Shown here: piece after piece, positions 19,805 to 28,316 of the stretch
Layout: every line of letters begins with the position of its first letter
How positions within the stretch are numbered: position 1 is the first letter of the stretch
Assembly: GCF_009914755.1 (NCBI RefSeq)
Contig: NC_060927.1
DNA from: the human T2T-CHM13v2.0 reference genome, Homo sapiens
Length of the DNA stretch: 64,000 bases
Reading direction: 5' to 3' (one strand)
Translations under genes and position numbers: made by a program
Notes under the pieces: model-generated
The model's database searches: none
Told to the model about the DNA's origin: nothing
What the model saw: the letters and a program-made list of their open reading frames with translations, nothing else

Positions 19805-20922
19805 CTCAGAAGAACAAAATTCGTTCACATTTCCAAATTTCAAAGTTACTAGAAAGCTACAGAAATCAAGATGGTGTGGAACTAACATTAGGATTGACAT
19901 ATAAATCAATGAAATAGAATTGATTCCAGAAATTGAATTTAGTCACATTTATGATCAATTGATTTTTCATAATCGTGCCAAGACAATTCAGTGGGAAAAG
20001 AATAGTCTTTTCAACAGATGGTATTGGAACAACTCAATGTTCACACACAAAAGAAAAAACCTGAACTCCTACTTCACAACATAAAAAACTTAACAAAAAT
20101 TAACTCAAAATGGACTATGGACATAATTTTAAAAGCTAAAACTACAAAACTCCTGAAGAAAACATAGGAGTAAATCTTCATGACTTTTGGTTAGGCAATA
20201 GTTTCCTAGGTATGACACCAAAAACAGAAGCAACAGAAGAAAAATAAATTGGACTATATCAAAATTTAAAACTTCTATGCTACAAACAATACTACCAAGA
20301 ATATGAAAAGTTAACTCGCAGAATGAGAGAATATATTTGCAAATCATATAGCTGATAAAAGATTTGCGTCTAGACAAAGAAATTTTACAACTCAATAACA
20401 AAGTAAACCCAATTAAAAAGTGAGCAAAGGGTTTGAATAGACATTTCTCCAAAGAAGTTGTACACATGGTTAGTAAGCACATGAAAAGATAATCAATATC
20501 AAAAGTCACTAGAGAAATGCAAATAAGAATCACAACGAGATATCACTTCAGACAACAACAAATGTTGGCTAAGAAACGAAGAAATTTGAACCATCATACA
20601 TTGCTGGTGGAAATGAAAAATGATACAGATGTTCTGGAAAACAGTCTGGCAGTTCCTAAAATGTTAAACATAGAATTACCACATGATCTAGCAATTCTAC
20701 TCTTTGTATATATTTAGGAAAAAAAATATGTCAATGCAAAAATTTGAACACAAATGTTCACAGCAGCATTATTCATACCAGCCAGAGTGGAAACTACCCA
20801 AATGTCCACCAACATGTTCATCCATAATGAATGGATAAACAAAATGTGGTATACCCATAATGAAATATTATTTGGCAATAAAAAAGAAATGAATTTTTTT
20901 TTTCACAACAAAGACCACGCCA

Positions 20923-20928
20923 TTTATT
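20923..20928 (-). terminator. PolyA signal AATAAA of the retrocopy
   Basis: Minus strand reads gtAAATAAAtggcgtggtctttgttgtgA10. Confidence 0.85.
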
Positions 20929-22579
20929 TACAAAGGCCAGTGTGGGAGCTGGGGGAGGCAGGGAGGGAAAGCCACACAGACATCTTCTCTGGACTGCTTG
21001 GGACCCTTTCCCACTTGGAGCAAACTCTGTTCCTCTTGCCGTCATATTCTCAGCCATGGGGTCGGTCCTCCAAGCAGCTGGGCCAAGTAGGAGAGGGAAG
21101 AGGTGATATGAGCCTCCTCTGTGCTCTGACAGAGCAATGTCCAATTCCAGATCAAAGGCATCATTGCCACCCTCTCCTCTCCTTCCTCAAAGAAAACTTT
21201 CTGGCCTGGAGGGAAATAGTTAAGAACTGAAAGGCCAGGGGCTCTGGAGGAAAAAAACCCTCTACTATTCCCACAAGGCAGTGAGGGGTGATAAGGGTGC
21301 TAGTCACAGCCCTGACAGCTTCAGAAAGGGTACCCACATTACCTCTGGGTTACCCAGCATCCAGAGCTCCAAGGGACCTAGCTCTCCCAGATATATATTC
21401 CTGCAATGGACTGACCTTTTTACCCACTTGTCTCTGGTGGTGGGAGAGCACTCTGAACCAGAAACCAACAAGGAATCCACTTCCCACCCAACTTAAGAGT
21501 GTATGCACACATGTGGATACACATGCACCTCCCCACTACTCACACAGACCCCAACCCCCTTCATGTCTTTTGAGGGGGGCTCAAATTACTGGTGCCTGGG
21601 GACACAAGCAAGACCTGGGTCCATGGAAATGTGTGTGTGTGTGCATATAAGCACATGTGCTTGAGGAACTAAAGCCAATATGACCCCTTGTGGGGCGTGG
21701 CGCTTAGCTTCATTGAGCTCCTTTCTTCAGTTTAAATTCCATTAGCATCTCTAAGTCTCTTCTGCCAGCTTGGGCCTGGATTCTTCTGCCTAAAAGAGCT
21801 ACGAGTGCTTCTGCTCCCCACTGTTAATTCCAACTTCCAAGCCTTTTACTCAGGCTGTCTCCCCCATTCCCCTCCTCCGAATAATCTCATTCCCTCCTCT
21901 TTCACATCAATTTCCTCTGAGCTGCTCCAGGGTTTGTTAATTCCTGTCCAGAGAGCTCTCTCATCTCCCTCTTCAGACAGGGAGAACAGGCGTCTTCCTC
22001 CTTACCCTGGAATTTCCAACAGTTCCCACCAAAAAGTGCTGAATGAACCAGAATAGGGGCCGAGGAGGAAAATTACCACCTGTTTCACCTGCTCCTCCTT
22101 CAGAGCGAGAAATTCTAGCATTGGTTGGGCTAGGGGTTGGGGGGTAGGGAGAAAAAGAAGGAAGAGAGTTACCAAAAGTAAACATAAGACAAAACCCTAG
22201 TGGTATAGATGGAAGACTATGTTCCAGTAAACCAGAGAGCTGGTTCCTCCCTCGACTCTGCACAGCCACTGAAAGTTTAAAGATTGCAAAAGTGGTGTGG
22301 GGCAAGGAGGTAGAGTCAATCAATGAAACTGTGAAAACTGTTTAAGTAGCACTGCTCAAGGAGACCAGGAGAGAAGATTCTGTTAGAGACGTAGCAGTAA
22401 AACCATAATTCTCAGACAGAGCTAAGGGGTTGGAGCCCATGTCTCTAAAGTCACCCTGCTGTTTGGAAAGGATGAGGGAGAAGACGGAAGGGATGACAAG
22501 CTGCAGAGGGTAAGGATTGACAGAAGAACCGAATGCTGACATCGAGGGAGGGGAGAGGCAGGAGGCATGGGACGAGGGA

Positions 22580-24385
22580 TTAGGAGAGCTGGGAGCCCAG
22601 CAGTCTCTCGATAGCTGCGTTGATGTCCCCTCCTGTGGCAATCAGGGCCTGCAGGTTGGCCTCACGATTGATGAAGCCCATGGAGTTGAGCTGCTCCAGC
22701 TGCTGCTGAAATCTCACTTCTGACGTCTGCACCTGTGAGTTTCCACTTCCAGCCAAAAGCTGGATCATCTGCTGCATGAGTTGCTGCTGGGTGCTGGAAG
22801 CCCCTGTTGGAGAAGATGTGGCTGGCGTGGCTGGTGAGGAAGTGGGGGCCTCGGGCGTAGACCCTGCGTTGCTGCCTGCTGAGGGTGCTGGGGTCCGGGA
22901 CATCCCGAAGGAGACAAGGCTGGGTACCAGCCCAGGGGCCTCGGTCTGCAAGGTCTGTAGTCCCTGCTGGATCTGCAGCAATGCCTGCATGGCTCGGGGA
23001 TTGGTAAGGATGGAGAGTGACTCTGGGTTCTGCATCTGCTGCAGGAAGACTGGGAGCTGCAGGCGGAGCTGCTCCTGCAGTTGGGGGTTCCCCGCGAAGA
23101 GCGGCACATTCACCATCATCTGAGCAGCGAAGTCGGGGTTCTGGGCAAGCGTCTGCATCATGCTGCGCATGTAGGGTGCTGAGATCACATTCTGCATCAG
23201 CTGGGGGTTCTCAGAGATCTGCTGGAGGAGGGCTTGCATTTCTGGGCTATTGAACATCCCTGACCTCAGGCTAGCCGCATTGATCCCAAAGGGGTTCAAG
23301 ACTGTCGGGTGCACCTGGCTGGTCCCCGATCCTCCGGTGCCCTCCCCACCGGACCCGGGGGCCTGGGAGGTGGGGGGCGAGGGGCTCCAGGGGTTAGGGA
23401 GGGGCTCTCGATTCTCAGTCCGCAGAGGCTGGGAGGATGAGCTGTCGGAGTTCCCGGCCAGGGAAGAGAAGGGATTGTTGCCAAACTGTTCCCGGGCAGC
23501 ACTGAACATGGGCTCCTGGATGTCCGTGTACATGCGGCGGAGGGCATTATACCCTCCAGGGATGCTCTCAAGGTTGCTCAGGGCCCGGTCCTGGTTCCGC
23601 ATCATCTCTTGCATCACGGCTGGATTCCGAGCAAGCTCCATTGTCTGCCTCATGAGTTCAGGGTTATTGAGCATGTGGCTGATCTCAGGGTTCCGCTCCA
23701 TCAACTGCTGCATCTGGGGTTTGGCAATAATCATGTGACGCATCAGGTCAGGGTTAGACATCATATCCTGGACCAGGGGGTTCTCCATGATCTGCAACAG
23801 CATCTCAGGATTGGACATCAGCTGCCTCTGCATCTGCTGCTGCAGCTCCATGAAGTTGGCAGAGCCCAGGCCCAGGCTGCCCAGCCCCAGGATGCCCCCA
23901 AAGCCAGAGAGTATGGACGCAGTAGCACTGGGGGATCCCTCCCCAGTCCCTGGAGAGGGCCCCCCACCACTGCTCCTCCGGCTTCCACTGCCAGCATCCG
24001 AAGAGGCACTGTCAGAGGTGGAGGGCTGGGTAGGGGTGGTGGGTGAAGCAGGCGTGGTGGAGGGTGCTGAGGCAGGGTCAGGTGTGGAGGGGGAAGAAGC
24101 AGTGGCAGCAGCTGGATCTTGAGCCTTCTGAGGGGTCTTGATGACCAGATGGACAGTGAGCCCGTCCTTGATTCCGTGCTGGTTCAGTGTGTCCCCATCC
24201 TTGAGGATCTTGCCTGACAAGATCAGGACCAGCTGATCCTGCTGAGCCTTAAACCTCCGGGAGATTTCCTCTTTGAACTCCTTGACCGAGGCTCGATCGC
24301 AGATCACAATTTCCTCCTTGTCCTTGGGGGTCTTGACGGTGACCCGAATGGGGGGCCTCGTCTCGGCCCCGCTCGGCTCCGCCAT
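22580..24385 (-). CDS. Intact ubiquilin-4-like ORF, 601 aa (UBL - STI1 repeats - UBA); extends to 630 aa from the ATG at 24472
   Basis: [25 protein letters not shown]...[34 protein letters not shown] with no stops or frameshifts. Translation is not demonstrated. Confidence 0.6.
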
Positions 24386-24472
24386 GCCGCCGCCGCCACC
24401 CGGCCGCCCGCCAGCCCGCCCGGCTCCTCCTCCTCCCCGCTCGCCCGGCCGGCCCGGCTCGGCTTCTGCCAT

Positions 24473-24765
24473 TTTTTTTCTTTTTTTTGAGACAAAGTCT
24501 CACCCTGTCACCCAGGCTGGAGAGCAGTGGCGCAATCTTGCCTCACTGCAACCCCTCCCGTGTTCAAGCGATTCTCCTGCTTCAGCCTCCTGAGTAACTG
24601 GGATTATAGGTGTGTGCCACTATGCCCGGCTAATTTTTGTATTTTTAGTAGAGATGGTGTTTCGCCATGTTAGCCAGGCTGGTCTTGAACTCCTGACCTC
24701 AGGTGATCTGCCTGCCTCAGCCTCCCAAAGTGCTGCAATAGAGACGTGAGCCACTGCACCTGGCC
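24473..24765 (-). mobile_element. AluSx-like element directly 5' of, and co-oriented with, the UBQLN4 retrocopy
   Basis: Full-length Alu whose A8GA8 tail abuts the retrocopy 5' end. Confidence 0.95.
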
Positions 24766-25122
24766 AAGAAATGAAATATTGATACGTTTCACAACATGGA
24801 AGAACTTTGAAAACATTATGCTAAATGAAAGAAACCAGTTACACAAGACAACATATAGGTAAATCTCAATAGACAAATGTTTAGACAGAAAGTAGATTAG
24901 TAGTTGCCCAGGACTGAGGGAAAGAAGAAGAGAGTAAGGAGTGACTGCTAATGGGTACAGATTTCTTTTGGGTTGATGAAATTGTTCTAAACTTAGATTG
25001 TGGTAATAGTTGTACAACTCTGTGAATACACTAAAAACCATTTAGGTATACACTTTAATTCAGCACAAGTGGCTGAATTTTACACAATGTGAGTTATGTA
25101 ACAATAAGGATTAAAAAAAAAA
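24766..25122 (+). mobile_element. L1M 3' end (continuation of 18935-20893)
   Basis: aagaaatgaa...acaacatggaagaactttgaaaacattatgctaaatgaaagaaaccag...gactgctaatgggtac. Confidence 0.85.
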
Positions 25123-28204: not shown

Positions 28205-28316
28205 GCGTGCGCGGCCACGTGACGGCCGCTATAAGAGCGCACGGGGCAGACGCTCGGTTCCCCGCCGTGCCTCCTCGCTGGCCGCGCTCCCTCCCGGTGC
28301 CGGCTTCTCTGAGTCA
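28205..28316 (+). promoter_or_regulatory. Core promoter motifs: E-box CACGTG 28216-28221, CRE half-site TGACG 28220-28224, TATA-like TATAAGA 28230-28236, AP-1 TGAGTCA 28310-28316
   Basis: Motifs read directly from the sequence, 45-155 nt upstream of the ATG; function is inferred. Confidence 0.65.

What the first reader, a model, noticed from the sequence alone, without database searches (positions are those of the whole stretch)
24383..24490. The insertion junction created a new in-frame start codon in strong Kozak context
Seen on the minus strand: Alu tail A8-G-A8-T, then GGCAGAAGCC, giving AAAATGG (A at -3, G at +4). The 'AT' matches the A8T at the 3' junction (20893-20901), so it is target-site derived; the G appears to come from the retrocopy. 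This ATG (24472) is in frame with the native ATG (24385), with no stop between. It turns the parental GC-rich 5'UTR into a 29-aa Gly/Arg-rich extension ([29 protein letters not shown]). Inference: any transcript starting upstream would make a novel 630-aa isoform with an RGG-like N-terminus.
Basis: partly seen in the sequence, partly recalled or inferred. Interest (0 to 1): 0.7.

Follow-up and report, generated by a model that had tools for sequence, protein, structure and literature searches.

The report
Chance start codon at pseudogene junction
A young, promoter-less retrocopy of the human UBQLN4 gene landed in the tail of an older Alu repeat, and the joint happens to spell an in-frame ATG, but nothing shows this start codon is ever used and the copy is drifting like a dead gene.

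Summary
On the minus strand an ATG at 24472-24470 (A at -3, G at +4) lies 87 nt upstream of, and in frame with, the native UBQLN4 ATG (24385). No stop intervenes, giving a 630-aa ORF.

The parent gene on chr1 has no such ATG. Homology to it starts at 24469, and the parent has C where the retrocopy has G 24470. So the A and T come from the target site (Alu tail plus first flank base). The G is untemplated, most simply a reverse-transcribed cap.

The retrocopy matches the spliced parent over 3567 nt without gaps, with 49 differences spread evenly across UTRs and CDS. Pairwise dN/dS is 0.56, as expected for a neutral copy. It has replaced conserved residues, including in the UBL LIFAGK motif. An intact ORF at this divergence is unremarkable.

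The ATG is the first AUG only for transcripts starting within 24473-24667. I found no retrocopy-specific evidence of transcription. The extension has one RGG and is not an RGG motif.

Verdict: a fortuitous junction ATG in an annotated processed pseudogene. Low interest.

The parts
24766..24775 (-). 5' copy of the Alu's target-site duplication (TTCATTTCTT)
   Evidence: Read. An identical 10-mer lies at 20884-20893. The pair brackets Alu plus retrocopy together.
24489..24765 (-). Old Alu element (body), same orientation as the retrocopy
   Evidence: The best other genomic copy is 88% identical (40 of 5071 candidates scored). There are 19 mismatches in 277 aligned bases plus 5 gap columns against the majority of 29 other copies.
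24645..24668 (-). Nearest upstream ATG (24668; A at -3, G at +4) with a 7-codon uORF inside the Alu, in a different frame
24472..24488 (-). Alu A-rich tail A8-G-A8. Its last A (24472) is the A of the junction ATG.
24471..24479 (-). Putative 5' copy of the retrocopy's target-site duplication (A8T, at most 9 nt). T 24471 is the T of the ATG.
   Evidence: It matches A8T at 20893-20901. It is low-complexity, so its length is uncertain.
24470..24472 (-). Junction-created ATG
24470..24470 (-). Untemplated G between target site and retrocopy (parent genome has C here), probably cap-derived
   Evidence: Literature passages.
24386..24469 (-). Former UBQLN4 5'UTR (84 nt, 1 difference from the parent), read as codons 2-29 of the extension
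22580..24385 (-). Parental-type CDS: 601 codons plus stop, intact. 25 nt differences from the parent, giving 16 amino-acid replacements.
   Evidence: Pfam finds UBL, UBQLN1/STI1 and UBA domains.
20904..22579 (-). Former 3'UTR (23 differences in 1677 nt counted to 20903), ending 19 nt after the AATAAA signal
20894..20903 (-). A10 run. It holds the poly(A) remnant plus the A part of the 3' target-site duplication. The first A may be templated by the parent.
20884..20893 (-). 3' copy of the Alu's target-site duplication (TTCATTTCTT). Its first T doubles as the T of the retrocopy's A8T duplication.

Best explanation
UBQLN4P1 is a young, full-length, L1-mediated processed pseudogene of UBQLN4. It integrated in sense orientation at the end of the A-rich tail of a much older Alu.

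The three bases of the junction ATG have three origins:
- A is the last A of the Alu tail.
- T is the first base of the Alu's downstream flank. A and T together were duplicated as the retrocopy's short target-site duplication.
- G is an untemplated 5' G added when reverse transcriptase copied the mRNA cap.

The parental leader is 84 nt, very GC-rich and free of stops in that frame. The ATG therefore falls in frame by accident and extends the ORF by 29 codons.

The copy carries no parental promoter and evolves neutrally. Most likely the ATG is not used.

If a capped transcript did start within 24473-24667, scanning ribosomes would meet this AUG first, in a strong context. They would make a ubiquilin-4-like protein with a Gly-rich, disordered N-terminal tail ahead of the UBL domain.

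Shown: the anatomy, the absence of the ATG in the parent, the order of insertions, and neutrality. Inferred: the cap origin of the G, the exact duplication length, and the lack of use.
For: Intronless copy:
- All 11 parental exons on G000:C1 155173767-155192251(-) align contiguously with GT-AG introns removed.
- 3567 nt align without gaps, with 49 differences (1.37%): 1 of 84 in the 5'UTR, 25 of 1806 in the CDS, 23 of 1677 in the 3'UTR.

5' end:
- Homology starts at 24469. The parent reads GGC where the retrocopy reads ATG.
- The parental leader has no ATG.
- Untemplated 5' G on full-length L1-mediated insertions is documented and attributed to the cap (PMC3287187 passage; PMC2912911 passage).

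3' end:
- An A-run follows the parental polyadenylation site.

Order of events:
- The 10-nt duplication TTCATTTCTT brackets Alu plus retrocopy.
- The Alu differs at 15 of 257 non-CpG sites from the majority of 29 copies chosen for their likeness to it. The retrocopy-parent non-CpG divergence is 0.89%.
- No other Alu above 88% identity was found among the 40 of 5071 candidates scored.

Neutrality:
- Nd = 16 and Sd = 9, giving dN/dS 0.56 for the pair. This does not differ from 1 (p = 0.16) and is about what one neutral plus one constrained lineage gives.
- Of 16 replaced residues, the X-linked paralogue agrees with the parent at 7, with the retrocopy at 1, and with neither (or a gap) at 8.
- In well-aligned blocks, 6 of 6 side with the parent, including F56L and A57S in LIFAGK.

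ORF survival is not surprising:
- In simulation, 44-66% of copies stay open after 25-13 substitutions (5000 trials each).
- P(no indel in the CDS) is about 0.18, using the indel-to-substitution ratio of the old chr2 copy.
Against: - Zero indels over the whole 3567 nt is somewhat fewer than the chr2-based yardstick predicts (3.3 expected, P about 0.04). That yardstick comes from a 75%-identity alignment that may inflate indels.
- None of the 24 CpGs in the first 192 nt is lost, against 10 of 67 elsewhere (Fisher one-sided 0.039, two-sided 0.057). This could mean the 5' end stays unmethylated in the germ line and has some promoter-like state.
- If the duplication is the full A8T, the poly(A) remnant is only 1-2 A long.
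- G/A8 is not a canonical L1 endonuclease site (consensus recalled; see also the passage in PMC3215922).
- UBQLN4P1 appears in three differential-expression lists, so some reads are assigned to it.
- I had no expression, CAGE, Ribo-seq or primate-orthologue data.
Confidence: 0.8

Rival explanations
1. UBQLN4P1 is a functional, recently born retrogene. It is transcribed from a start site in or just upstream of the Alu tail, and the junction AUG gives a ubiquilin-4 paralogue with a new Gly-rich N-terminal tail.
For: - The 630-aa ORF is intact, with UBL, STI1-type and UBA domains all recognised.
- No indel in 3567 nt.
- 0 of 24 CpGs lost in the first 192 nt against 10 of 67 elsewhere.
- Strong Kozak context.
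- The name appears in three transcriptome lists.
Against: - Divergence is the same in the CDS (1.38%) and the 3'UTR (1.37%).
- dN/dS is as expected for a neutral copy.
- Derived replacements sit at residues conserved between paralogues, including the UBL LIFAGK motif.
- The parental promoter is not carried: homology stops at 24469.
- The published qPCR primers match the parent's exons perfectly, so they cannot tell the two genes apart.
- RNA-seq assignment at 98.6% identity is prone to mis-mapping (inference).
- RefSeq curates the locus as a pseudogene (hub annotation).
Confidence: 0.04
2. Alu and UBQLN4 copy arrived together as one chimeric retrotranscript. Reverse transcriptase reached the capped 5' end of the UBQLN4 mRNA and switched template to the poly(A) end of an Alu RNA, so the ATG was made at an RNA-RNA switch point rather than at a target site.
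For: - A single 10-nt duplication (TTCATTTCTT) flanks the whole Alu-plus-retrocopy composite, and both parts have the same orientation.
- Under this model the retrocopy's poly(A) would be 10 nt rather than 1-2.
- Chimeric retrocopies of this layout are described in the literature (recalled; not read here).
Against: - The Alu is at least 6 times more diverged than the retrocopy: 5.8% non-CpG from a majority biased towards it, against 0.89%.
- No near-identical source Alu was found. The best is 88%, among 40 of 5071 candidates scored.
- The T at 24471 is unexplained by this model. It is explained by duplication of the Alu's flank base.
Confidence: 0.05
3. The G at 24470 is not cap-derived. It is a random extra nucleotide added at 5' joining, or a later C-to-G change in a transcript that began one base further upstream.
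For: - Extra nucleotides at 5' junctions occur in about 12% of Alu insertions (PMC2912911, Table 4 passage).
- The parent has C at that place, so a single transversion would suffice.
Against: - The copy ends exactly where the parent homology ends, which is also where RefSeq places the pseudogene's end (24469, hub annotation). Full length plus one G is the classical cap signature.
- One specific transversion at 1.4% overall divergence is improbable, roughly 0.1-0.2% (inference: 14 transversions among 49 differences).
- The base before it (T against the parent's G) does not match either.
Confidence: 0.1

Closest known systems
L1-mediated processed pseudogene (retrocopy), full-length class with an untemplated 5' G
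   Same: - Intronless copy of the spliced mRNA, on another chromosome.
- A-run at the parental polyadenylation site.
- Short A-rich duplication at the flanks.
- One extra G at the 5' end (literature).
   Different: - Very short remaining poly(A).
- The insertion point is the very end of another element's A-tail, so the duplication is low-complexity and its length cannot be fixed.
Retrogenes that gained new N-terminal coding sequence or promoters from their surroundings (Carelli et al. 2016, PMC4772013; abstract read)
   Same: A retrocopy whose reading frame is extended by sequence that was not coding in the parent.
   Different: - No sign of selection, no own promoter shown, no exon gain.
- The extension comes from the parent's own leader, opened by three junction bases, and not from flanking DNA.
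Upstream in-frame AUG-creating changes in 5'UTRs that give N-terminally extended proteins (recalled from human genetics literature; not read here)
   Same: A new AUG in a strong context, in frame and without a stop, turns the leader into coding sequence.
   Different: Here it arose by retroposition in a pseudogene, not by a point variant in an expressed gene.
Alu-mRNA chimeric retrocopies made by template switching (recalled)
   Same: Alu followed directly by an mRNA copy in the same orientation, with one duplication around both.
   Different: The two parts differ at least six-fold in divergence, so they were not inserted together.

Membership tests
L1-mediated processed pseudogene | Colinear with the spliced parental mRNA, all introns absent | tested here: met
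   11 exons with GT-AG introns in the parent. Gapless 3567-nt alignment to the spliced parent.
L1-mediated processed pseudogene | Poly(A) tract at the parental polyadenylation site | tested here: met
   A10 directly follows ...TTGTTGTG(A), 19 nt after AATAAA. The parent genome continues GAGTG. The tract is short.
L1-mediated processed pseudogene | Flanking target-site duplication | tested here: inconclusive
   A8T lies on both sides (24479-24471 and 20901-20893). It is low-complexity, so chance cannot be excluded, and no empty site was available.
L1-mediated processed pseudogene | Target resembling the L1 endonuclease site (TT/AAAA on the sense strand; consensus as in the PMC3215922 passage) | tested here: inconclusive
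   The A-run target fits the A side. The base before it is G or A, not T.
Full-length insertion with cap-derived G | One untemplated G between the duplication and the first base of the transcript | tested here: met
   G 24470 against C in the parent genome. Homology starts at 24469.
Full-length insertion with cap-derived G | The 5' end coincides with a real parental transcription start site | not testable with these tools
   Only indirect: RefSeq's curated pseudogene span also ends at 24469 (hub annotation). No CAGE data here.
Functional retrogene | Intact ORF | tested here: met
   601-codon parental frame and 630-codon extended frame are both open. Expected by chance in a sizeable share of copies of this age.
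Functional retrogene | Purifying selection (dN/dS significantly below the neutral expectation) | tested here: not met
   Pairwise dN/dS 0.56, Nd 16, Sd 9, p = 0.16 against equal rates. Derived changes at conserved residues.
Functional retrogene | Own transcription, shown specifically for the copy | not testable with these tools
   Only gene-list mentions. The published primers match the parent perfectly.
RGG/RG motif | Several closely spaced RGG or RG repeats (definition recalled) | tested here: not met
   One RGG and one RG in 29 residues.
Strong Kozak context | Purine at -3 and G at +4 | tested here: met
   A at 24475 and G at 24469. The native ATG and the Alu ATG at 24668 also meet this.
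Template-switch chimeric retrocopy | Both parts inserted at the same time, so of equal age | tested here: not met
   Alu 5.8% non-CpG divergence from a biased majority against 0.89% for the retrocopy-parent pair. Best other Alu is 88%.

The most novel reading that the evidence does not exclude
UBQLN4P1 is a great-ape-specific retrocopy whose CpG-dense former leader has stayed unmethylated in the germ line and acts as an orphan promoter. Some start sites lie in the Alu tail region, so the junction-born AUG yields a ubiquilin-4-like protein with a new Gly-rich N-terminal tail in some tissue, for example testis. This would be a gene being born in which a reverse-transcribed cap supplies the last base of the start codon.
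Probability: 0.03. Interest if true: 0.55.

Novelty: new member of a known kind. Interest (0 to 1): 0.13.

Why it matters
As it stands it matters little. It is a neat dissection of how a retroposition joint (target A and T plus an untemplated G) can spell a start codon and open a parental leader for translation. The host is an annotated pseudogene that drifts neutrally.

It would matter only if capped transcripts covering 24472 and translation from it were shown. Then it would be a clean example of new coding sequence created at the moment of retroposition.

A practical by-product: the published 'UBQLN4P1' qPCR assay cannot tell the pseudogene from UBQLN4.

Tried and rejected
- **Old chr2 copy as outgroup (L011).** It agrees with the parent at 20, with the retrocopy at 22, and with neither at 7 of 49 sites. 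It is too diverged (75% identity) and too affected by parallel CpG decay to give clean lineage counts. It does show that a good share of the differences, mostly synonymous or UTR, arose in the parent. I used it only qualitatively.
- **RNA fold of the leader.** The fold is stable (-49.8 kcal/mol) but no more so than shuffles (z = -0.85). This reflects composition, not a specific structure.
- **Pol III read-through from the Alu.** No T4 run occurs on the sense strand until 22758, so such a transcript would not stop early. Pol III RNAs are uncapped, so I rejected this as a route to translation (inference).
- **10-nt identity TGTTGTGAAA** between the retrocopy's 3' end and the Alu's 5' flank (family D15). 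Eight of the ten bases are the parent's own 3' end. I judged it chance.
- **Supplements of PMC4772013** could not be read. Its retrocopy expression tables may bear on whether this copy is transcribed.
- **Alu-tail preference.** PMC2836564 (passages) deals with hotspots inside Alus and says nothing direct on 3' tails.
- **Not attempted:** structure prediction, complex prediction and large protein searches. The protein family is obvious from Pfam.

Full report
**1. The observation**

Read on the minus strand, the region runs as follows:
- a 10-nt direct repeat TTCATTTCTT (24775-24766);
- an Alu body (24765-24489);
- its tail A8-G-A8 (24488-24472);
- T (24471) and G (24470);
- then GCAGAAGCC... 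from 24469.

The ATG at 24472-24470 has A at -3 and G at +4. The native UBQLN4-type ATG is at 24385-24383. The two are 87 nt apart, in frame, with no stop between them. The ORF listing gives a 630-aa ORF at 22580..24472(-). An in-frame TGA at 24502-24500 closes the frame upstream.

**2. What the parent looks like**

A search of the window's own assembly found the parent on contig C1 at 155173767-155192251(-), exon by exon. I fetched it and defined 11 exons with GT-AG introns.

The retrocopy aligns to the spliced parent over 3567 nt (24469-20903) without a single gap. There are 49 differences (1.37%): 1 of 84 in the 5'UTR, 25 of 1806 in the CDS and 23 of 1677 in the 3'UTR.

Homology begins exactly at 24469. 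Directly upstream the parent's genome reads GGC where the retrocopy reads ATG. The parental leader contains no ATG.

**3. Where the three bases come from**

The repeat TTCATTTCTT occurs just before the Alu (24775-24766) and again just after the retrocopy's A-run (20893-20884). It brackets Alu plus retrocopy together. So the Alu was there first, or the two arrived together.

The Alu is old:
- Its best match elsewhere in the genome is 88% identical (40 of 5071 first-look candidates scored).
- It differs from the majority of 29 other copies at 19 of 277 aligned bases plus 5 gap columns. At non-CpG sites the figure is 15 of 257. Those copies were picked for their likeness to it, so this is a lower bound.
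- The retrocopy-parent pair differs at only 0.89% of non-CpG sites.

The retrocopy therefore entered an Alu that was already old, at the boundary between its tail and its flank.

The 5' joint reads A8-T. The 3' joint reads A10-T (20903-20893).

The G at 24470 matches neither the target nor the parent, which has C there. One extra G on a copy that otherwise starts where the parent homology and the RefSeq span start is the known signature of full-length L1-mediated insertions. [quoted passage not shown] That the end at 24469 is a true parental start site rests only on the hub's RefSeq span. I had no CAGE data.

**4. Is the copy under selection?**

The evidence points to no selection.
- Divergence is the same in the CDS and the 3'UTR.
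- The 25 CDS differences fall in 24 codons and give Nd = 16, Sd = 9 and dN/dS = 0.56. This does not differ from equal rates (p = 0.16). It is about what one neutral and one constrained lineage give together (inference).
- Seven sites are CpG in the retrocopy but TG or CA in the parent. This shows that part of the change is on the parent's side.
- Of the 16 replaced residues, the X-linked paralogue agrees with the parent at 7, with the retrocopy at 1, and with neither or a gap at 8. In well-aligned blocks all 6 informative sites side with the parent: F56L and A57S in the UBL LIFAGK motif, M220I, N222K, M257V and P555S.

The domain layout is still recognisable: UBL at 44-113, UBQLN1/STI1 at 224-294 and UBA at 589-624 of the 630-aa form.

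An open frame is not surprising at this age.
- After 13, 18 or 25 random substitutions, 66%, 55% or 44% of simulated copies stay open (5000 trials each).
- I used the old chr2 copy as a yardstick, at 0.068 indel events per substitution. P(no indel) is then about 0.18 for the CDS and 0.04 for the whole 3567 nt. That yardstick probably overstates indels.

**5. Would the ATG be used?**

The copy carries none of the parent's promoter.

On this strand the nearest upstream ATG is at 24668 inside the Alu. It also has A at -3 and G at +4, and it opens a 7-codon uORF in another frame. There are 43 ATGs between 24473 and 28400. The junction AUG is therefore the first AUG only for capped transcripts that start within 24473-24667.

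Divergent transcription from the GYG1 promoter would run towards the copy. GYG1's start is at 28259 on the plus strand (hub annotation), 3.8 kb away and head to head. Such a transcript would carry all those upstream AUGs unless it were spliced (inference).

The leader downstream of the ATG folds stably (-49.8 kcal/mol), but no better than shuffles (z = -0.85).

The extension has 14 Gly and 4 Arg but a single RGG. 'RGG-like' is not justified. It is a Gly-rich, low-complexity tail.

**6. Literature**

'UBQLN4P1' occurs in 4 papers of the library, 3 of them listed. I read only the passages containing the name. All are gene lists:
- a melanoma ceRNA analysis with qPCR (PMC10332930);
- a schizophrenia meta-analysis (PMC11282642);
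- a COVID-19 blood transcriptome (PMC10216228).

The qPCR primers of the first paper match the parent's exons perfectly as well as the pseudogene. That assay is not specific. None of these papers deals with the start codon or with translation.

Carelli et al. 2016 (abstract only) describes how retrocopies gain promoters, including from CpG islands. Its supplements could not be read, so whether this copy is in their expressed set is open.

**7. Points against my reading**

- 0 of 24 CpGs are lost in the first 192 nt, against 10 of 67 in the rest (Fisher one-sided 0.039, two-sided 0.057).
- There is no indel anywhere in the copy.

Either may be chance. Together they leave a small opening for a germ-line unmethylated, promoter-like 5' end. 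Even then, start sites could well lie at or below 24469 and miss the ATG.

**8. Rivals**

- A template-switch chimera of Alu and mRNA fits the single outer duplication. It fails on the age gap and on the T.
- A non-cap origin of the G cannot be excluded, whether a random extra base or a later mutation. It is less economical.
- A functional retrogene is not excluded but has no positive support beyond the open frame.

**9. Verdict**

The sequence facts are right and the origin story is essentially right, with the G reassigned to an untemplated, probably cap-derived base. The functional inference is unsupported. This is a chance start codon at the joint of an annotated, neutrally drifting processed pseudogene. 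Interest is low.

Noticed in passing
window 24278-24469 (first 192 nt of the retrocopy, minus strand): All 24 parental CpGs are kept here (GC 74%, CpG observed/expected 0.97), while 10 of 67 CpGs are lost in the rest of the copy (Fisher one-sided 0.039). This may reflect a germ-line unmethylated mini CpG island, or chance.
   Followed up: partly
L011 (G000:C2:153328800-153332800): A second, much older intronless UBQLN4-like copy on chromosome 2. It is about 75% identical to the parent mRNA. Within the CDS it has 22 indel events (18 of them frameshifting) and 19-25 stops in every frame. It is clearly dead.
   Followed up: partly
window 24787-24796 and 20901-20910: The 10-mer TGTTGTGAAA (minus strand) occurs at the retrocopy's 3' end (8 bases are the parent's own 3' end plus 2 A) and also 11 nt upstream of the Alu's 5' duplication. 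I judged this a coincidence, though it sits oddly close to both junctions.
   Followed up: partly
window 22758-24765, minus strand: No run of four or more T occurs for about 2 kb downstream of the Alu's start on its sense strand. Any Pol III transcript from this Alu would read through the tail and most of the UBQLN4 frame before meeting a terminator.
   Followed up: no
window 23470-23690 region; parent loci L009 and L010: The 'UBQLN4P1' qPCR primers published in PMC10332930 match the parental UBQLN4 exons without mismatch, so that assay measures UBQLN4 mRNA at least as much as the pseudogene.
   Followed up: yes
window 24766-24775 and flank: The Alu's own duplication (TTCATTTCTT, preceded by AATAT in the flank) does not look like the usual A-rich L1 endonuclease target.
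   Followed up: no
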